From a virus (taxonomy: Duplodnaviria > Heunggongvirae > Uroviricota > Caudoviricetes), in IMG/VR virus record IMGVR_UViG_2571042690_000019: a stretch of DNA of 64,000 nucleotides; one strand, given 5' to 3'. The position numbers and the translations under genes were made by a program. This document shows, piece after piece, positions 6,834 through 56,128 of the stretch. Position 1 is the stretch's first letter. Each line of letters starts with the position of its first letter. Below the pieces are notes generated by a model. It had not been told where the DNA came from. It saw only the letters and a program-made list of their open reading frames with translations, and made no database searches.

Positions 6834-7601
6834 TCACCCCATAGATATCGAGGTTTCGGTAATAATACGTTTTGCGTCCAACTCCCATGCTGTGATCACG
6901 TCTGCAATCACACTTATCGGCGCTTGTGTGGCATAAATACGCTCTTCTCCAATTGGTGCTGAAACATCCGTAAAGCCGACTTCTTTGGCATCCTGTATCG
7001 AGCAAATCAGCGGGACCGGAACACGAACAAGGTGAGTGGTTGCTTCAAATTGTGTACCTGTCATCAGGCGAAGCCGTGCGCCCAGCGAATTACACATCAG
7101 ACTCATGGTCGCTTTATCAGTTGCCATTAACGTAACGTCATACGTCAGAATGGCCTGGGTGTATTCCAGTTCTGCTAAAGGCATTCCGGTATCCGGTTCG
7201 CAAAAACTGGCTACTTTTTTGCGGTCAATCTGCTGATCATCGTTGATATAATTGATATCCATAGTGCGTGAGATATTGACCAGGGGGAGAGCATCCCGGT
7301 TAATGTTCTGGTTTTCAGGTTTTCTCCCTTGCCCGGCATTTGCGCGACGAACTGCTTTAAGAAACTCGATCGCATTGTCGAAACGGGCCACATAGACACG
7401 CTCTGCTGGTGGACGATTCAAGAATGACGCAAAGCGTTTTTCTTCCGGCGCGGGGGCCACCAGTAAGATATCAGAAAAAATGTTGCTGATTAGCGTCGCA
7501 AACGCGTTATCCACGTTTTCAAAGCCCGTGGTCTGGAATTTTCCTGTGCGTGAGGTTTGCCATTCACCTGTTCGCGCCAGGAGGGTTTTATTTGAAGTCA
7601 T
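6834..7601 (-). CDS. hypothetical phage protein
   Basis: 255-aa ORF in the same operon. Confidence 0.55.
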   Translation of the reverse strand: MTSNKTLLARTGEWQTSRTGKFQTTGFENVDNAFATLISNIFSDILLVAPAPEEKRFASFLNRPPAERVYVARFDNAIEFLKAVRRANAGQGRKPENQNINRDALPLVNISRTMDINYINDDQQIDRKKVASFCEPDTGMPLAELEYTQAILTYDVTLMATDKATMSLMCNSLGARLRLMTGTQFEATTHLVRVPVPLICSIQDAKEVGFTDVSAPIGEERIYATQAPISVIADVITAWELDAKRIITETSISMG

Positions 7602-8401
7602 TCGATCACTCCGTTTTGAGTCGTATCAAAATTCCTGGCTGGTATGCAGTAGTAAAGCGAACCAACATGCTGTGTGCCGTAGCTAAAAATACGGTGCACG
7701 TACCACCAGCGGCGGGCTACGCCGTTTACCATCTCTTCATTCCATTCAAGAATTGAGCCGACGGGGACGTTATTTGCTGCAATACGCAGAATCAGAACAT
7801 CATCGGTTAAGCCATCCTGCTCACCGTCTGCGTCAATCGCATGGAAAGAGTCACGCCCGTCCGGGTTATCCAGCACATAAACGATTTCAGGTTCCTGGTA
7901 AGTCAGTTCGCGTTGGTTGTTATCCAGTTCAGTGAATGACTCTTCTCCTGTTTCGTCGCTGACTACCCCATATGTGCCAACATCTGGTCGATATAAGAGA
8001 GCCTGAAACGCGTCTGGGCTGGATTCAATAATCAGCATCCAGTCTGCGCGGATTTGGTCGTTAAAGGCTTTATGCCCGTTATAGCGTGCTTTTAACTGTG
8101 GAGTCGGTTCTCTGCCAGCCAGGGAAGATGGAAGTATGGCTATATCTGATTCGCCAGCATCCGGAGTAAGGCCACCGTTGCTATCAGCAAAATTATCATG
8201 GCTATCAGCTTTGGCGGCGGGTTGCTCTTCCAGAATGCTGAATGAATCCGAACCGGTATTGCCATGTTCCGGCGCGCCTCCTGCATTCGCTTCAATCGGC
8301 GCTGGCGTTTCTCTCTGCGTGCTGTCATGTTCTGACTCCTTACTTGCCAGGTTTGCATCGTCAGCAAACCATTCGTCAAAACGGCCCATAAGCATCCTCA
8401 A
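7598..8401 (-). CDS. hypothetical acidic phage protein
   Basis: 267-aa ORF, Asp/Glu-rich N-terminal half. Confidence 0.55.
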   Translation of the reverse strand: MRMLMGRFDEWFADDANLASKESEHDSTQRETPAPIEANAGGAPEHGNTGSDSFSILEEQPAAKADSHDNFADSNGGLTPDAGESDIAILPSSLAGREPTPQLKARYNGHKAFNDQIRADWMLIIESSPDAFQALLYRPDVGTYGVVSDETGEESFTELDNNQRELTYQEPEIVYVLDNPDGRDSFHAIDADGEQDGLTDDVLILRIAANNVPVGSILEWNEEMVNGVARRWWYVHRIFSYGTQHVGSLYYCIPARNFDTTQNGVIE

Positions 8402-8485
8402 AGGTCGATCTGTCAGGTATCGAAAGGAAGATTTTCGGGAGATTGTGATTTTGGATGAAGGAGGGGGAATTCATAAAATGCACTT

Positions 8486-8506
8486 GCGCACAGTGCAACG
8501 GTGCGC
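8486..8506. promoter_or_regulatory. possible HigA operator palindrome (GCGCAC-N9-GTGCGC) upstream of higB
   Basis: inverted repeat about 45 bp upstream of the higB start codon. Confidence 0.25.
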
Positions 8507-8551
8507 TATAGTTATGGCATTCGGTAATCATCACGGAGGATCAAATGACTA

Positions 8552-8854
8552 ATGACCAAAAAAATTAACATAAAGGATTTCAGGGATGCGTGGCTTGATG
8601 ATTTTTTTGAATTTTCAACACCACATAGAAAGATACCTCCTGATATTCATATGACATTGTCACGGAAGTTGGACATTATCAATGCCGCAACTACCTGTAA
8701 GGATTTAAGATCACCACCAGGTAATCGGTATGAGGAACTGTCAGGGAAGCTAAATGGCTATTCATCAGTAAGGGTGAATAAGCAATATAGGTTAATTTTT
8801 AAGTGGGTTAACGGAAAGGCCGAGGACTTGTATCTCGACCCTCACAAATACTAA
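8552..8854 (+). CDS. higB: type II toxin HigB (RelE/ParE superfamily)
   Basis: 100 aa; PPGNRYEELSGKLNGYSSVRVNKQYRLIF matches the HigB killer family; toxin gene precedes antitoxin as in higBA. Confidence 0.82.
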   Translation: MTKKINIKDFRDAWLDDFFEFSTPHRKIPPDIHMTLSRKLDIINAATTCKDLRSPPGNRYEELSGKLNGYSSVRVNKQYRLIFKWVNGKAEDLYLDPHKY

Positions 8855-8924
8855 AACAGATACCCGGTTACGGACCGGGTTCTGACCAGAGTCCACTTAA
8901 TACGCACGCTAGTAAGGGCAAAAA

Positions 8925-9263
8925 ATGAAACAGGCAACCAGAAAACCGACGACCGTAGGTGATATCCTGCTGTACGAATACCTGGAGCCGTTAGAGCTGA
9001 AGATCAACGAGTTAGCAGAAATACTTCATGTTCATCGTAACACCGTAAGCGCTCTTGTTAATAACAATCGTAAGCTAACGATGGATATGGCATATCGCCT
9101 GGCAAAAGCATTCGATACTTCTGTAGATTTTTGGATTAATCTTCAGACCGCAGTAGATCTGTGGGAAGTCGAAAATGATATGCGCGTCCAGGAAGAGTTA
9201 AGTCGTATCAATACTGCTGAAAAATTTATTTCTCAGCGGAACCTGAATAAAAAAGCAGCCTGA
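8925..9263 (+). CDS. higA: type II antitoxin HigA (XRE-family HTH)
   Basis: 112 aa; HTH segment LKINELAEILHVHRNTVSALVNNNRKLTMDMAYRLAKAFDTSVDFWINLQ typical of HigA/VapI. Confidence 0.82.
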   Translation: MKQATRKPTTVGDILLYEYLEPLELKINELAEILHVHRNTVSALVNNNRKLTMDMAYRLAKAFDTSVDFWINLQTAVDLWEVENDMRVQEELSRINTAEKFISQRNLNKKAA

Positions 9264-9286
9264 TATAGTAAAACACATACAAAAAG

Positions 9287-9314
9287 CCCACTTAGCAAGT
9301 GGGCTTTCCTTTGT
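9287..9314 (+). terminator. Rho-independent terminator after higA
   Basis: GCCCACT-TAGCA-AGTGGGC hairpin followed by TTTCCTTTG. Confidence 0.6.
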
Positions 9315-9319
9315 AATTA

Positions 9320-9520
9320 ATGAACATTAAACCTATCCGTACAGAACAAGATTATGAGGCCGCACTGCGTGCGGTCGAACCGATGTTCGATAACGAACCG
9401 GAAATGAATACTCCGGAAGGTGATTTCTTTGAGGTTATGAGTCTTCTCATTGAGGAGTACGAGAAGAAACATTACCCAATTCAACCACCATCACCTGTTG
9501 AATCTTTTAACTATCCATAA
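9320..9520 (+). pseudogene. 3'-truncated XRE-family antitoxin-like gene (N-terminal domain only)
   Basis: 66 aa resembling the N-terminal part of HTH antitoxins (TEQDYEAAL..., NTPEGDFFEVMSLLIEEYEKKHYPI) but ending before any HTH domain, exactly where the low-GC gene begins. Confidence 0.4.
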
Positions 9521-9541
9521 TAAAAGTAATCAGGATAAGCT

Positions 9542-10270
9542 ATGATGTCAGAAAAAGTTAAAGATAATCCGTCTATAAATGAAACAGAACTAAAATCATT
9601 TTCTGAAATAATAAAAGATAAAATATTTAACAAGGTTTTTGCATATGTTGTCATTTCTTTTCTAATTTTTAACTGGAAGGATATTTTAATTATATTAAAG
9701 TCAAAGGACGACATCCTATATACATTATCTATTGTTTCTGTTGGTGGTAATGTCCCGTTCATTGATAATTGGATTGTATCCCCGTGGGTTTATCACGTTG
9801 TAATCCCATTTATTTATGGAGTATTTGCATCTGTGTTAGCTCCTGTTCTCACACTGAAGATATCTAAGCTAACAAGTAAATTATACACTGAAATAAGATA
9901 TTTAGATGAAGTTGCTGATTATGATAAAAGAATAGAATTGCAAAGAAAGAAAACAAAGTTAAATCAAGCAACCAATGACGCTAAATATTCAAAACAAATC
10001 TTAGATGAAAATGAAAATAAACTTAATGACTTGGTTACGAAACAGCGAGAAATTTGTGGCGCGATAAAACTATTGCATACTGATGTTGGCAGTATTATTG
10101 AACTATATAAAAATAAGGGGGTTAGCATTGAATCTCCGCAAGATTTATGTGATTTTATAGTCGCTATAAAAAGCACATCATTCTATAATGATGACAAGCA
10201 TTTTAATAAATTGGTGTCTGATATTTCCAGTTTGTTTGATAATACTGGAATTGATCTTTCAAAAAAATGA
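9542..10270 (+). CDS. low-GC hypothetical membrane protein (two predicted TM helices plus C-terminal coiled-coil region)
   Basis: 242-aa ORF with AGGA RBS, own terminator; visibly AT-rich versus flanks; hydrophobic segments VFAYVVISFLIFNW and VYHVVIPFIYGVFASVLAPVLTL. Confidence 0.65.
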   Translation: MMSEKVKDNPSINETELKSFSEIIKDKIFNKVFAYVVISFLIFNWKDILIILKSKDDILYTLSIVSVGGNVPFIDNWIVSPWVYHVVIPFIYGVFASVLAPVLTLKISKLTSKLYTEIRYLDEVADYDKRIELQRKKTKLNQATNDAKYSKQILDENENKLNDLVTKQREICGAIKLLHTDVGSIIELYKNKGVSIESPQDLCDFIVAIKSTSFYNDDKHFNKLVSDISSLFDNTGIDLSKK

Positions 10271-10276
10271 AAGCCC

Positions 10277-10316
10277 AGCATAAACTACTAGGCTATGTGT
10301 GGTTTATGCTTTTTTT
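10277..10316. terminator. bidirectional Rho-independent terminator
   Basis: AGCATAAAC...GTTTATGCT hairpin followed by TTTTTT; lies between convergent genes. Confidence 0.55.
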
Positions 10317-11497
10317 ACATACTCCATGAACATTTTTTCAGCTTGTGCTGGTGGTGTTCCAGCCATGACAAGCGCATCAATGAACGCCTGCTTCTTCAGT
10401 GCGAACTGATCGGCAAGGCGTTGCTGAAGCTCCTTGTTTTTCTGTTTCTCACGTTGCAAGGCCGCTTCTTTTGCTGCCGCCCGTTTTTTCTGTGCATCTG
10501 ACAACTTTCTGGCCTTGGTCAATTGGTCACGTAGTTTGTCGATCTTGCCGTTGTCCTTTGCCAGTTTTGTACTTAAAGCTGCCTGGCGCTTCTGATAGAG
10601 CCTCCATTCGCGTTTGGCGGCTTCAACGTTCGTTTTACTGCTACGATTGCGATTAAACTCCTTCTCGTCTTCTTTTGAGAAGTGTTTGGTTGTACGGCGG
10701 CGATCGTCACCAAATGCAATTTGCGTTGCAGCCTTTTGTAGCGCACGAGCAATACTCATTTGCCAACTGGCGGACTGTAACCGCGTCATTGAGTGGATCA
10801 CGTGTTTACAGGCGACGCCTTGCAGCTTCGGGTTGCGAACTTTTGGATAGGCGTATTCTTTTGGCGGTGCCAGGGCAAAGTTACCCGCAGTGGCGATGTA
10901 ACGATACCAGTATTGATGACGACCACAGTCACAATCGAAAGACACTCGCCCGGCGCACAGTGATTTAGTGATTTTGAGAGCTGATTTATCGTCTTCTGCG
11001 ATGTCATCAACCATCTGATCCCATTCTTCAAAGCGTATCCGGACGATATGGTGCTGGTGGACGGATATATCCGATGCTTCTACGCGGATATTAATCACAT
11101 TGTGGCGAAGAGATACGGGTGTAGCTCTTTTGATACCAGATCCGTCATCCACGGCGTTATTTGCACGCTTAATATCGATTGCCTGGCTGGATGCCACCAG
11201 CTGGGCGTATGTGATGCCAGCCGTCTTGCTGTCATATTTTTCGCGCGTTTTACTCCGTAGCTTTTCGAAACCTTTCAGGTCGTCTCGCGTGAAGAACGTG
11301 CCGCCTTTTTTCTTCCCTAACTTGAGAATATCTTCGGCGGATTTGTTCCTCAGTCTACCTGGCGTCAGCGTCCGGTGAGCTTGTCGGCGCTTACGGGTTT
11401 GTTCTTTCCTGATAAGGTCGAATAAACGCGTGAAGTCCTTAGAGGACAGGCCGTCAGTGATATAGCGCCCGTCCTGGTTTTTCAGGAAATCAGGCAT
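10304..11497 (-). CDS. hypothetical protein with SWIM-type zinc-finger-like motif and Lys/Arg-rich coiled-coil C-terminus
   Basis: 397 aa; CxC-x(n)-CxH pattern (FDCDCGRH ... VACKHVIH). Confidence 0.6.
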   Translation of the reverse strand: MPDFLKNQDGRYITDGLSSKDFTRLFDLIRKEQTRKRRQAHRTLTPGRLRNKSAEDILKLGKKKGGTFFTRDDLKGFEKLRSKTREKYDSKTAGITYAQLVASSQAIDIKRANNAVDDGSGIKRATPVSLRHNVINIRVEASDISVHQHHIVRIRFEEWDQMVDDIAEDDKSALKITKSLCAGRVSFDCDCGRHQYWYRYIATAGNFALAPPKEYAYPKVRNPKLQGVACKHVIHSMTRLQSASWQMSIARALQKAATQIAFGDDRRRTTKHFSKEDEKEFNRNRSSKTNVEAAKREWRLYQKRQAALSTKLAKDNGKIDKLRDQLTKARKLSDAQKKRAAAKEAALQREKQKNKELQQRLADQFALKKQAFIDALVMAGTPPAQAEKMFMEYVKKA

Positions 11498-11819
11498 TTT
11501 CTATCTCCGGTTCCGCGCTTGCGTAATCACGGATCTTGTTCCTCAGCCATGCCACATCAGGAAGAGTTAACGTGGTCCCTGCGGGCATTTCTTCAATTTC
11601 TGACTCATGGCCCACCAGCACCCGGAATACCCAGCGCAAATCTGCATTGCCATACGCCCTGTAGGCTGCAAGGTCTGAACGATATACTTCATCAATCTTT
11701 ATCGTGTACTGGAAATTATCAGAGTGATACTCCGATACCCGCTTAATCATTTCCTGGTGAAACAGCGCACGAAAAATATCGTCTTCAATGTACCTATCGT
11801 CGAGTCTGCTATAGCCCAT
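11490..11819 (-). CDS. hypothetical protein
   Basis: 109-aa ORF whose stop overlaps the start of the SWIM gene. Confidence 0.5.
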   Translation of the reverse strand: MGYSRLDDRYIEDDIFRALFHQEMIKRVSEYHSDNFQYTIKIDEVYRSDLAAYRAYGNADLRWVFRVLVGHESEIEEMPAGTTLTLPDVAWLRNKIRDYASAEPEIENA

Positions 11820-12011
11820 AACAAAGCCTCTCAGTCATAACCTGGGGGAAACTGTATGCAGGGTGTGAAATGCGAGAAACAGACAGGCCACCAGTTCAGG
11901 GGGATGTGGTTCATAAATCCCCTCACTGGTGACAAGTGACTTTCATTAATCTTTATGCGGGGGCCAGCTTCATTTGCTGGCATTAGATTAAAAATCAAAC
12001 GGAGTAAATGA

Positions 12012-12146
12012 CATGGATGTTATCTTCGAATTATTAATGCTAATTGATCTGTTTATGAACGCTTCATTGACCACTCAAATACTCGCGTCAATATTTTTGT
12101 TACTCTTCTACCTGGTATTGAGGGAGTTAACAAAGCTACTAATGTG
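12012..12146 (+). CDS. possible small hydrophobic peptide (44 aa)
   Basis: manually translated MDVIFELLMLIDLFMNASLTTQILASIFLLLFYLVLRELTKLLM; not in ORF track (below length cutoff). Confidence 0.2.
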
Positions 12147-12147
12147 A

Positions 12148-15867: not shown

Positions 15868-16183
15868 ATTGGCAGCCTCCTTTGACTAAGTTAAGGAGCT
15901 ACCGCGTGAGGTTCCAATCTCAATGGCGGTAGCACTGACTGGGTTGGAACTACCGGCGTCAAAGGGAACCGGCCTGCCTTTCGGCAGCCCAGCCAGCACT
16001 ACCATTGATCTCTGAGCTAAACGCTAAGTATGGCTGTGCGATGGCATGACACAAAAAAAGACGCGTTCGGCGTCTGTGTCGCCTTTGACATTATCCGGGG
16101 TTCCAATCCCGGCACCCGTTTTTCTAAGGTGCCGTAGAAATATACCCCACGATAATGCCATGGCGCAACAGTCAGTATTTTAT

Positions 16184-40796: not shown

Positions 40797-40872
40797 TGGT
40801 GGCCCCTACCGGACTTGAACCGGTGACCGTGCGATTATGAGTCGCCAGCTCTAACCACTGAGCTAAGGGGCC
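40797..40872 (-). tRNA. tRNA-Ile (anticodon CAU, ileX-like) or tRNA-Met
   Basis: GGCCCCTTAGCTCAGTGGTTAGAGC...CTCATAA...GGTTCAAGTCC...GGGGCCACCA; cloverleaf folds; near-identical to E. coli ileX as recalled. Confidence 0.75.
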
Positions 40873-42561: not shown

Positions 42562-42637
42562 TGGTGCCGATTAACGGACTCGAACCGCTGACATCCTGCT
42601 TACAAGGCAGGCGCTCTACCAACTGAGCTAAACCGGC
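42562..42637 (-). tRNA. tRNA-Thr (anticodon UGU)
   Basis: GCCGGTTTAGCTCAGTTGGTAGAGC...CTTGTAA...GGTTCGAGTCC...CGGCACCA cloverleaf. Confidence 0.8.
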
Positions 42638-42639
42638 AT

Positions 42640-42715
42640 TGGCGATGGTGGATGGATTTGAACCATCGACCCGTTGATTAACAGTCAACCGCTCTAACCG
42701 CTGAGCTACACCATC
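42640..42715 (-). tRNA. tRNA-Asn (anticodon GUU)
   Basis: GATGGTGTAGCTCAGCGGTTAGAGC...CTGTTAA...GGTTCAAATCC...CACCATCGCCA cloverleaf. Confidence 0.8.
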
Positions 42716-55782: not shown

Positions 55783-56128
55783 AGTTACGGCCTCACTAAC
55801 AGGTTTAACAACCTGCTACCCGCTGTCAAACAGGTGGCAGGACGTGACAGGGTTGACAGACTGGCGTTAGTGAAACCAGCAGGCCGAAGCCTCCCCATCA
55901 CGCCCCACCATAATTCGGGCGTAACGTGGTTTACGGACACAAAAATACCGCAATATCGGAAATCTGCGGTTGTCCGCACTAACATTCAGGCTGTCAAACC
56001 TGGTCGCAGAATTTGCTACGACGGCATGAATATAAGCCTGAAAACATGGAAGATCAACTAAAAATTTCAGCAATGGATGACTTCAGTCGATGATGCAGAT
56101 CATACATTCCGATTTAGAAACAGCAAAT

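What the first reader, a model, noticed from the sequence alone, without database searches (positions are those of the whole stretch)
8402..10316. Accessory islet: HigB/HigA pair, an orphan truncated antitoxin and a low-GC two-TM coiled-coil gene
After an intact higBA with its own terminator comes a 66-codon fragment resembling only the N-terminal domain of an HTH antitoxin, ending where a strongly AT-rich 242-codon gene starts. That gene has its own RBS and terminator and encodes two predicted TM helices plus a coiled-coil cytoplasmic tail. The pattern suggests gene replacement inside a TA/defence hotspot; the membrane protein is a candidate abortive-infection or exclusion factor.
Basis: partly seen in the sequence, partly recalled or inferred. 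Interest (0 to 1): 0.65.

Follow-up and report, generated by a model that had tools for sequence, protein, structure and literature searches.

The report
Cargo slot in a D6-like phage-plasmid
A 1.9-kb insert between two tail genes of a D6-like E. coli phage-plasmid carries an ordinary HigB/HigA toxin-antitoxin pair, the decayed stump of a second antitoxin that lost its toxin, and a very AT-rich, fast-evolving inner-membrane protein from an uncharacterised family, which is probably a prophage add-on acting against competing phages but is untested.

Summary
The window is a D6-like (P1-related) phage-plasmid. The islet lies antisense between the P1 gene-7 and gene-25 homologues, which are adjacent in P1.

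- **higBA:** 8552-9263 is an intact pair (PF05015 toxin, TIGR02607 antitoxin).
- **Stub:** the 66-codon ORF is the N-terminal half of D6 orf72, a 119-aa HigA. Its cognate PF09907 HigB survives in sister plasmids but is absent here. Homology ends at about 9502.
- **Orphan decay:** toxin-less orf72 copies were disrupted three separate ways (nonsense, frameshift, this truncation). None of the 12 loci read with a toxin-linked copy is disrupted.
- **Membrane gene ("mem"):** the 242-codon gene has the lowest GC in the window (0.29, z = -5.6). It has two TM helices and one roughly 110-residue helix. No Pfam, NCBIfam, PADLOC, PDB or fold match was found. Only 50 cluster representatives exist among 1.84 billion proteins.
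- **Slot:** it is a modular cargo hotspot. mem occurs alone, HigBA occurs alone, and other cargo or near-empty slots occur. mem is therefore a stand-alone moron, not a partner of the antitoxin.
- **Variation:** there are at least 8 allele classes (35-60% identity) between flanks that are mostly 96-100% identical. mem is under purifying selection within the window lineage (pN/pS 0.30).

A defence or exclusion role is plausible but untested. Interest is moderate.

The parts
7598..8401 (-). Left flank: homologue of P1 tail gene 7 (core gene, GC 0.50)
   Evidence: 99% identical to D6 orf69, annotated 'similar to P1 gene 7'. Directly adjacent to gene 25 in P1 and JK004.
8451..8506 (+). Putative higBA promoter (TTGGAT-17 nt-TAAAAT, 8451-8479) followed by nested palindromes (TGCACT/AGTGCA 8479-8497; GCGCACAGT/ACGGTGCGC 8486-8506). 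Candidate HigA operator.
   Evidence: Read from the sequence; inverted repeats. Inferred only: the hexamers fall below the threshold of the promoter scan.
8552..8854 (+). higB, RelE-fold toxin, intact
   Evidence: PF05015, E 4.4e-35, profile positions 1-91 of 91. phrog_3066 'toxin of TA system'. Closest solved chain 6F8S_B, E 2.8e-14. 100% identical to D6 orf70.
8925..9263 (+). higA, HTH antitoxin, intact
   Evidence: TIGR02607, E 7.9e-30. HTH_3, E 7e-11. 2EBY YbaQ, E 1e-53.
9283..9307 (.). 11-bp-stem hairpin closing the higBA unit; terminator-like on both strands, stronger T-run on the minus strand
   Evidence: It marks the right edge of the PF05015 higBA cassette that replaced the PF09907 higB of variant C.
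9320..9520 (+). 66-codon stub of orf72, an orphan HigA antitoxin of the PF09907-partnered kind. Only the N-terminal domain is left. No Shine-Dalgarno sequence. Homology to full-length orf72 ends at about 9502.
   Evidence: PADLOC PD-Lambda-2_B positions 1-65, E 2.5e-16. phrog_10398, a 66-aa family. Full-length orf72 matches E. coli K-12 HigA 5IFG/5YCL, E 8e-8. The SD sequence (GGAG) is present in variant C and lost in types A and B.
9542..10270 (+). mem: 242-aa inner-membrane protein. N-terminal amphipathic helix, TM1 (about 31-53, invariant N44, near-invariant S39 and W45), short loop with a small helix, TM2 (about 81-108, invariant P89 and P101) continuing into a cytoplasmic helix to residue 191, then two short helices. 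GC 0.29.
   Evidence: phrog_8191 'unknown function', E 5e-121. No Pfam, NCBIfam or PADLOC hit.
10272..10294 (.). Hairpin between the mem stop and the gene 25 stop. It is part of the swapped cassette: each mem allele class has its own version.
10304..11497 (-). Right flank: homologue of P1 tail gene 25 (core gene, GC 0.49)
   Evidence: 99.5% identical to D6 orf74; 57% to P1 gp25.

Best explanation
**What the islet is.** It is the cargo slot of D6-like phage-plasmids, inserted antisense into the tail operon 26-25|7-24-6. It holds independent modules placed side by side.

1. **higBA.** An intact PF05015-type HigB / TIGR02607-type HigA operon. It is most likely a plasmid-addiction or stress module that represses its own promoter.
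2. **The stub.** A relic of a second antitoxin, orf72, which is a HigA of the E. coli K-12 kind. Its cognate PF09907 HigB was displaced when module 1 was inserted exactly at the HigB stop codon. The orphan lost its Shine-Dalgarno sequence and has decayed independently in several lineages. In this lineage it was cut at codon about 61 by the recombination that brought in the present mem allele.
3. **mem.** A stand-alone moron that does not depend on either TA module. It encodes an inner-membrane protein with a conserved two-helix membrane module. That module carries an invariant mid-membrane Asn and two invariant Pro residues. The rest is a rapidly diverging cytoplasmic coiled-coil and C-terminal part.

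**How mem most likely works (inferred).** It is made in the lysogen, oligomerises through the long helix, and protects the carrier cell against other phages or mobile elements at the inner membrane. My preferred mechanism is an abortive-infection-like one: the variable cytoplasmic part senses an intruder, and the conserved polar-lined membrane module then compromises the membrane.

**Confidence by step.**
- Anatomy and history of the islet: about 0.9.
- mem is an independent module: about 0.8.
- Protective (anti-phage or anti-MGE) role of any kind: about 0.45.
- Triggered-pore version specifically: about 0.25-0.3.

The single confidence value given (0.45) is for the whole statement, including a protective role.
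For: **Identity of the element and the slot**
- The region is 99.9% identical to pKY1497_2 and 94% to phage D6.
- Genes 25 and 7 are adjacent in P1 and JK004.

**History of orf72**
- In variant C loci a PF09907 HigB (E 2e-34) stops 3 nt before the orf72 ATG (4 nt stop-to-start spacing) and provides a GGAG Shine-Dalgarno sequence.
- orf72 is 28% identical (E 1e-12) to the 139-aa HigA that pairs with PF09907 HigB in Enterobacter and Klebsiella. It matches solved E. coli HigA at E 8e-8.
- Toxin-less orf72 copies carry a nonsense codon (L022/L065), a frameshift (L027/L068) or the window truncation. None of the 12 loci read with a toxin-linked copy (some are the same contig sampled twice) is disrupted. 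pN/pS is 0.09 for orphan copies and 0.01 for toxin-linked copies.
- The junction at about 9502 is present in exactly the 71 plasmids that carry this mem allele. It is also present in 51 of 5426 complete E. coli genomes, always on plasmids.

**mem is an independent module**
- mem alone fills the slot in L076 and L077.
- HigBA is present without mem in L046, L056, L057 and L079.
- Other cargo occurs: an AlpA-like gene, and a 179-aa unknown protein found alone or after mem.
- In every full-length architecture a terminator-like hairpin separates the antitoxin gene from mem.
- Distant relatives are lone, low-GC genes. They sit in prophages on the opposite strand to their neighbours, next to recombinases, or in a chromosomal islet, with no HigA nearby.

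**mem is a real, selected gene**
- It is intact in 11 of 11 window-type loci, with pooled pN/pS 0.30 against 0.08-0.09 for the tail genes.
- The family profile recovers it across lineages.

**Cassette-like hypervariability**
- There are at least 8 allele classes at 35-60% identity. Gene 25 is 96-100% identical across the E. coli-type loci, while gene 7 and higB drop to 79% and 89% in one allele class and the flanks of the Enterobacter type are 67-83%.
- Across 9 allele classes, the TM module averages 53% identity, the coiled coil 24% and the C-terminal part 28%.
- Each allele class brings its own downstream hairpin.

**Conserved polar and Pro residues in the TM helices:**
Against: - There is no functional evidence of any kind. 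mem has no PADLOC, Pfam or NCBIfam hit and no significant fold match. No paper mentions it.
- No recognised defence system was seen in this slot in any variant. This weakens guilt by association.
- Fast divergence of the coiled coil could be low constraint rather than diversifying selection. I could not test for positive selection because the alleles are too divergent.
- Within the window lineage, selection is purifying.
- No convincing sigma-70 promoter was found for mem, so expression in the lysogen is assumed.
- mem is disrupted in some lineages: frameshifts in L026/L054 and L029/L062, and an insertion in Klebsiella plasmids that PLSDB annotates as IS903B. It is therefore dispensable.
- TM1 contains two polar residues after the NW motif. 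Its membrane topology is predicted, not shown.
Confidence: 0.45

Rival explanations
1. mem is a superinfection-exclusion protein. It blocks genome entry of incoming phage at the inner membrane without killing the cell. Precedents recalled from knowledge, not tested here, are the HK97 gp15 moron in a tail-gene region and T4 Imm.
For: - It is a membrane protein encoded by a moron inside a tail-gene cluster.
- It lies opposite in orientation to the late operon, so it is plausibly expressed in the lysogen.
- It shows allele-for-allele replacement between conserved flanks.
- Relatives sit in the cargo regions of other prophages.
Against: - The predicted periplasmic loop (54-80, with the DI.YTLS motif) and the TM module are the most conserved parts.
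- The variable parts are cytoplasmic. This is the opposite of what is expected for a protein that recognises incoming tail or ejection proteins from outside.
- The invariant mid-membrane Asn and the polar pair are unexplained by this model.
Confidence: 0.2
2. mem is the third component of a tripartite HigB-HigA-mem system, by analogy with PD-lambda-2 or toxin-antitoxin-chaperone systems. The window would then hold a broken system.
For: - In four architectures mem directly follows a PF09907-type HigA (orf72 or the 139-aa HigA).
- The HigB-HigA-mem block also occurs outside phage context on large Klebsiella plasmids.
- orf72 matches the N-terminal part of PD-Lambda-2_B at E 4e-43. PD-lambda-2 needs a third gene for defence (PMC9519451).
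Against: - mem occurs alone in the slot (L076, L077) and in unrelated prophages and chromosomes.
- HigB-HigA occurs in the same slot without mem.
- A terminator-like hairpin separates HigA from mem.
- The most common lineage has neither PF09907 HigB nor an intact orf72, yet keeps mem intact under purifying selection.
- orf72 lacks the peptidase domain of PD-lambda-2 B. mem has no match to any PADLOC model.
Confidence: 0.07
3. mem serves the phage's own cycle, for example as a holin or antiholin-like lysis-timing factor, or as a membrane factor for tail assembly or DNA delivery.
For: - It is located between tail genes.
- It has two TM helices with polar residues and a charged cytoplasmic tail, which is superficially holin-like.
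Against: - It is on the opposite strand to the late operon.
- It is absent from P1, JK004 and some D6-like elements.
- It is frameshifted or insertion-disrupted in several otherwise intact loci.
- It is the GC outlier of the window.
- It is three times larger than class II holins (from knowledge).
- D6-like plasmids carry LydA/LydB lysis genes elsewhere (PMC6799933).
Confidence: 0.1
4. mem is a lysogenic-conversion or membrane-physiology gene unrelated to phage defence, for example in stress tolerance, envelope remodelling or interbacterial competition immunity.
For: - It has the same moron features as above.
- One relative sits in a chromosomal islet next to an Asr-like gene, with no phage genes in the 10.7-kb locus read.
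- No known defence genes neighbour it.
Against: - Cassette-like allele turnover between conserved flanks is more typical of conflict genes.
- Most family members are on phages, phage-plasmids or next to recombinases.
Confidence: 0.15
5. The 242-codon ORF is a non-functional AT-rich spacer ORF.
For: It has extreme AT content and no annotated function.
Against: - Profile-detectable family with invariant residues.
- pN/pS 0.30, with 11 of 11 ORFs intact.
- Confident helical model (pLDDT 80.8).
Confidence: 0.03

Closest known systems
HigB/HigA of the PF05015 / TIGR02607 kind (solved relatives: GraT/GraA 6F8S; E. coli YbaQ 2EBY; Proteus HigA 4MCX)
   Same: Toxin-first operon. Full-length profile matches for both proteins. 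An HTH antitoxin. Palindromes overlap the putative promoter. Already annotated as such in D6 and in RefSeq plasmids. Regarded as post-segregational killing in D6-like plasmids (PMC6799933).
   Different: Nothing notable. Activity is untested here.
E. coli K-12 type HigB(PF09907)/HigA (solved 5IFG, 5YCL)
   Same: D6 orf72 aligns over residues 6-112 with K-12 HigA (E 8e-8). In sister plasmids it directly follows a PF09907 HigB.
   Different: The window has no PF09907 toxin. Only residues 1 to about 61 of the antitoxin are left, without the HTH domain and without a Shine-Dalgarno sequence. From knowledge of the 5IFG complex, the N-terminal domain is the toxin-binding part and the HTH domain handles dimerisation and DNA binding.
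PD-lambda-2 (Vassallo et al. 2022, PMC9519451)
   Same: orf72 and the stub match the N-terminal HigA-like part of PD-Lambda-2_B (E 4e-43 and 2.5e-16). Both are HigB-like plus HigA-like genes followed by a third gene.
   Different: There is no C-terminal peptidase domain. The third gene is unrelated: the paper describes a P4-antitoxin-like protein, whereas mem is a membrane protein. mem is shown here to be independent of the TA genes.
Membrane morons that exclude or abort phages (HK97 gp15, T4 Imm, lambda RexB, 2-TM effectors of CBASS and retrons). From knowledge.
   Same: A small inner-membrane protein encoded by an accessory gene of a temperate element. It differs in GC from its surroundings and is variably present among relatives.
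   Different: No sequence or fold similarity was detected to any of them in PADLOC, Pfam or PDB searches. mem adds a helix of about 110 residues and a variable C-terminal part. No partner sensor gene is conserved.
[quoted passage not shown]
   Same: A fixed position between conserved core genes where unrelated cassettes are exchanged.
   Different: Here the cargo is TA modules, mem, an AlpA-like regulator and a 179-aa unknown protein. None is a recognised defence system.

Membership tests
HigB toxin (Pfam PF05015) | Full-length match to the family profile above the curated cut-off | tested here: met
   120.5 bits against a cut-off of 27; profile positions 1-91 of 91.
HigBA operon (toxin-first type II TA) | Toxin gene upstream of a cognate HTH HigA antitoxin on the same strand | tested here: met
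   higB 8552-8854, then higA 8925-9263. TIGR02607 scores 102.5 bits against a cut-off of 47.7.
HigBA operon (toxin-first type II TA) | mRNA-cleaving toxicity neutralised by the antitoxin | not testable with these tools
   Needs expression assays.
HigA antitoxin of the PF09907-partnered (E. coli K-12) kind: the 66-aa ORF | N-terminal domain homologous to full-length family members | tested here: met
   Identical to D6 orf72 over about 53 residues, 91% over 65. orf72 matches 5IFG HigA at E 8e-8.
HigA antitoxin of the PF09907-partnered (E. coli K-12) kind: the 66-aa ORF | C-terminal HTH (HTH_3) DNA-binding domain | tested here: not met
   No Pfam hit for the 66-aa ORF. HTH_3 lies at residues 63-115 of orf72, which are missing here.
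HigA antitoxin of the PF09907-partnered (E. coli K-12) kind: the 66-aa ORF | Adjacent cognate PF09907 HigB toxin | tested here: not met
   Absent from the window islet. Present in variant C and F loci.
PD-lambda-2 defence system | Component B = HigA-like domain fused to a C-terminal peptidase; component C related to a P4 antitoxin | tested here: not met
   Only profile positions 1-65 (stub) or 1-119 (orf72) of 402 are matched. No other PD-Lambda-2 model is hit by any islet protein. System description from PMC9519451.
Any catalogued anti-phage defence protein (PADLOC-DB v2) or curated family (Pfam, NCBIfam): mem | Profile match outside the coiled-coil region | tested here: not met
   No hit for the window protein. 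Hits of other family members are to SMC-like coiled coils only.
Tripartite TA-plus-accessory system (HigB-HigA-mem) | Obligate co-occurrence of the three genes | tested here: not met
   mem alone (L076, L077); HigBA alone (L046, L056, L057, L079); distant mem relatives without HigA.
Moron (accessory transcription unit inside a phage operon) | Present or absent between otherwise collinear relatives, with deviant base composition | tested here: met
   Genes 25 and 7 are adjacent in P1 and JK004. GC 0.29 against 0.48, z = -5.6.
Moron (accessory transcription unit inside a phage operon) | Own promoter and terminator | tested here: inconclusive
   A hairpin follows mem. No convincing promoter was found, and the promoter scan is no better than shuffled sequence.
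Two-TM tetrameric cation-channel pore (NaK / KcsA-like) | Significant fold match and a conserved selectivity-filter motif | tested here: not met
   These are the top Foldseek PDB hits, but at E 1.4-10, probability 0.14 or less and TM-score 0.3 or less. The loop sequence is not conserved across the family.
Holin | Small membrane protein encoded in the lysis cassette and transcribed late | not tested
   By position and strand it is not in a lysis cassette. Expression timing is unknown.

The most novel reading that the evidence does not exclude
mem founds a new family of single-gene, membrane-acting anti-phage or anti-MGE proteins. It would have a conserved Asn/Pro-bearing two-helix pore or oligomerisation module coupled to a rapidly replaced cytoplasmic coiled-coil sensor. 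It would be exchanged as a cassette at a previously undescribed cargo hotspot in the tail operon of D6-like phage-plasmids. A side possibility is that toxin-less orf72, and even its 66-aa toxin-binding stub, acts as an anti-addiction factor against sister plasmids that carry the PF09907 HigB.
Probability: 0.3. Interest if true: 0.6.

Novelty: new member of a known kind. Interest (0 to 1): 0.42.

Why it matters
**Background.** D6-like phage-plasmids circulate in clinical E. coli, Shigella and Salmonella. About 1.75% of complete E. coli genomes carry the orf72 region. These elements are reported to carry almost no recognised defence systems (bioRxiv 10.1101/2025.09.12.675607).

**If mem is protective**
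- This slot would be where these elements hide their anti-phage cargo.
- mem would add a small, easily testable single-gene family to the defence or exclusion catalogue.
- Natural allele series are available for mapping specificity.

**Independent of function**
- The locus is a clean natural example of antitoxin orphaning and decay. A toxin was displaced by another TA cassette. The leftover antitoxin then lost its ribosome-binding site and was destroyed three different ways.
- RefSeq labels the stub 'helix-turn-helix domain-containing protein', although the HTH domain is exactly what is missing.

Tried and rejected
- **Genome scan:** a scan of GTDB representative genomes for mem relatives found none.
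- **Locus search:** the 33-sequence alignment was too divergent to use for locus searching.
- **Word-indexed protein searches:** searches with the single protein, the full alignment and the TM-only alignment returned only 7, 28 and 16 proteins. All are unnamed apart from one 70-aa partial labelled DUF1398.
- **First AlphaFold run:** the 4-sequence run was unusable (pLDDT 54).
- **PDB profile search:** coiled-coil noise only.
- **Rfam:** no RNA family in the islet.
- **JK004 gene_46:** this gene, downstream of a HigB/HigA pair, was tested as a possible mem relative and is not one.
- **Literature:** the Gilcrease & Casjens D6 genome paper is not held. Accession and PHROG identifiers appear in no paper.
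- **P1 late-promoter box:** AAATGACTA occurs at 8543-8551. It has no usable -10 on either strand and about 0.5 chance occurrences are expected in 64 kb, so I dropped it.
- **HTH plus mem as a functional pair:** I first considered this. I rejected it after the unbiased gene-25-anchored survey.
Full report
**1. What the window is and where the finding sits**

The 3.9 kb around the finding is 99.9% identical to E. coli plasmid pKY1497_2 and 94% identical to phage D6. D6 is a P1-related phage-plasmid. The islet (8402-10303, genes on the + strand) lies between two minus-strand tail genes. These are the homologues of P1 gene 7 (7598-8401) and P1 gene 25 (10304-11497). In P1 and in Cronobacter phage JK004 these two genes are 3 nt apart. 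The islet is therefore an antisense insertion into a tail operon.

**2. The observation**

- All ORFs are present as described.
- higB matches PF05015 (E 4e-35) and higA matches TIGR02607 (E 8e-30). The closest solved structures are 6F8S_B and 2EBY.
- A hairpin with an 11-bp stem follows higA at 9283-9307.
- The 66-codon ORF equals the first 53 or so residues of D6 orf72 (119 aa) and then ends. The HTH_3 domain of orf72 (residues 63-115) is gone.
- GC is 0.29 for the 242-codon gene and 0.48 for the window. It is the lowest-GC 729-bp stretch of the 64 kb (z = -5.6).
- Hydropathy and an AlphaFold model (33 sequences, pLDDT 80.8) agree on the fold. There are two membrane helices (about 31-53 and 81-108). 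The second runs on as a single helix to residue 191 and is followed by two short helices.
- The claimed 'own terminator' is a hairpin shared with the convergent gene 25. It is imperfect in this allele.

**3. The stub is an orphan antitoxin in decay**

I compared the slot across 30 loci anchored on mem and 38 anchored on gene 25.

- In one architecture (C) a PF09907 HigB toxin (E 2e-34) stops 3 nt before the orf72 start codon (4 nt stop-to-start spacing) and supplies its Shine-Dalgarno sequence.
- orf72 is homologous to the 139-aa HigA that pairs with PF09907 HigB in Enterobacter and Klebsiella (28% identity, E 1e-12). It is also homologous to solved E. coli K-12 HigA (E 8e-8).
- In D6 and in the window, that toxin gene has been replaced by the whole PF05015 higBA cassette plus its hairpin. 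The swap occurs exactly at the HigB stop codon. This leaves orf72 without a toxin and without a ribosome-binding site.
- Toxin-less copies have been destroyed three ways: a nonsense codon (L022/L065), a frameshift (L027/L068), and the window truncation. None of the 12 loci read with a toxin-linked copy is damaged. pN/pS is 0.09 for orphan copies and 0.01 for toxin-linked copies.
- Homology between the window and full-length orf72 alleles ends at about 9502.
- The junction occurs in 71 PLSDB plasmids, exactly the number carrying this mem allele at 90% identity or more. It also occurs in 51 of 5426 complete E. coli genomes, always on plasmids.
- The truncation and the arrival of this mem allele therefore look like one event, in what is now the commonest lineage.

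**4. The slot is a modular cargo hotspot, and mem is independent of the TA genes**

Contents seen between gene 7 and gene 25:

- PF05015 higBA + orf72 + mem (type A, as in D6).
- The same with the orf72 stub (type B, the window).
- PF09907 HigB + orf72 + mem (type C).
- K-12-type HigB + HigA + mem (type D).
- K-12-type HigBA alone (type E: L046, L079).
- PF09907 HigB + orf72 alone (type F: L056, L057).
- mem alone (L076, L077).
- An AlpA-like gene (L067).
- A 179-aa unknown protein, either alone (L075) or after mem (L027).
- A near-empty slot (L073).

In the gene-25-anchored sample, mem is present in 26 of 32 informative non-P1 loci, and two of those copies are frameshifted.

In every full-length architecture, a terminator-like hairpin and an AT-rich spacer separate the antitoxin from mem. 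The window lost these in the truncation.

More distant family members are lone, low-GC genes. One is an opposite-strand gene between replication and Nin-region genes of a Klebsiella prophage. Others sit next to serine recombinases or invertases. One is in a chromosomal islet. None has a HigA neighbour.

This rules out an obligate HigB-HigA-mem system. It makes mem a stand-alone moron.

**5. What mem is**

It belongs to a small family without annotation.

- An exhaustive profile search of 1.84 billion cluster representatives found 50 proteins at E <= 1e-3.
- It matches phrog_8191, 'unknown function'.
- No Pfam, NCBIfam or PADLOC model matches it. The only hits of relatives are coiled-coil noise.
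- Across 33 diverse members, N44, P89 and P101 are invariant. M1, S39 and W45 are nearly so (S54 also in the TM-only alignment). All except M1 lie in or beside the two membrane helices.
- Among nine allele classes, the membrane module averages 53% identity, the coiled coil 24% and the C-terminal part 28%.
- The alleles in the D6 slot differ by 40-65%, while gene 25 is 96-100% identical across the E. coli-type loci. Gene 7 and higB drop to 79% and 89% in one allele class, and the Enterobacter-type flanks are 67-83%. Each allele brings its own downstream hairpin and even the last codons of gene 25.
- Within the window lineage, mem is intact in 11 of 11 loci. pN/pS is 0.30, against 0.08-0.09 for tail genes.

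**6. Mechanism**

*Shown:* the anatomy, the history of the TA modules, the independence of mem, its cassette-like turnover, and its purifying selection.

*Inferred:* mem is expressed from the prophage and acts at the inner membrane in a conflict with other phages or mobile elements.

I favour an abortive-infection-like triggered membrane lesion. The variable part is cytoplasmic, and the conserved part is a polar-lined membrane module attached to a long oligomerising helix. Entry exclusion is the main rival.

The evidence is circumstantial. No defence system is recognised anywhere in this slot. No promoter could be assigned. The coiled coil may simply be weakly constrained.

**7. Comparison with what is known, and novelty**

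The higBA pair is ordinary and already annotated. It is treated as an addiction module in the literature on D6-like plasmids (PMC6799933).

The stub resembles the HigA-like N-terminus of PD-lambda-2 B. However, the defining peptidase domain and third component of that system (PMC9519451) are absent.

mem has no known relatives. If it is protective, it would be a new family of a known kind: a prophage membrane moron. Papers on D6-like elements do not mention it.

**8. Verdict**

The defence role remains unproven.

Interest is moderate. The locus is a tidy, testable candidate and a neat case of antitoxin decay, but nothing in it is mechanistically surprising yet.

Noticed in passing
window 7598-11819 (minus strand); hairpins at 10294-10272, 9309-9281, 8880-8862, 8497-8479: The islet splits what is a single late tail operon in P1 (26-25-7-24-6). 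It also carries four terminator-like hairpins that read on the minus strand. Gene 7 and the genes after it would therefore need their own promoter or anti-termination. A P1 late-promoter '-22 box' 9-mer (AAATGACTA) occurs at 8543-8551, but without a usable -10.
   Followed up: partly
window 11820-12147; L003 5394-5965; also L019, L027, L066-L068, L072: There is a second cargo slot between gene 26 and the mat homologue. Some sister plasmids carry another RelE/ParE-family toxin plus a HigA (30% identical to the window HigA) there. In the window this gap is 328 bp with no gene.
   Followed up: partly
L075 5932-6471 (minus strand); L027 5811-6290: A 179-aa protein with no Pfam or PADLOC match is another independent module of the same slot. 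It occurs alone in L075 and downstream of mem in L027.
   Followed up: partly
L006 3153-5743 (K. pneumoniae pCRE10_1; about 46 Klebsiella plasmids): Large IncFIB Klebsiella plasmids carry the K-12-type HigB-HigA-mem block outside any phage context. mem is split there by an insertion that PLSDB annotates as IS903B in sister plasmids.
   Followed up: partly
L046 4740-5467 (K. pneumoniae IncF plasmid; 181 plasmids with gene 25 at 60-80% identity): A remnant of a P1/D6-related phage (genes 26 and 25) is embedded in conjugative Klebsiella plasmids next to ars and lactate-utilisation genes. HigB-HigA abuts gene 25 and no mem is present.
   Followed up: no
window 15922-16132 and 55830-56035: There are two copies of the C4 antisense RNA. 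One is next to an isrK-like sRNA and the other is next to its a1/b1 target (Rfam gathering-score hits). This suggests two immI-like regulatory regions in the window.
   Followed up: no
window 40800-40872, 42565-42637, 42643-42715 (minus strand): Three tRNA genes (Rfam), as in P1-group phages.
   Followed up: no
window 9320-9520 in RefSeq records: RefSeq annotates the 66-aa stub as 'helix-turn-helix domain-containing protein', although the HTH domain is exactly the part that is missing. PHROGs holds it as a separate 66-aa family (phrog_10398).
   Followed up: yes
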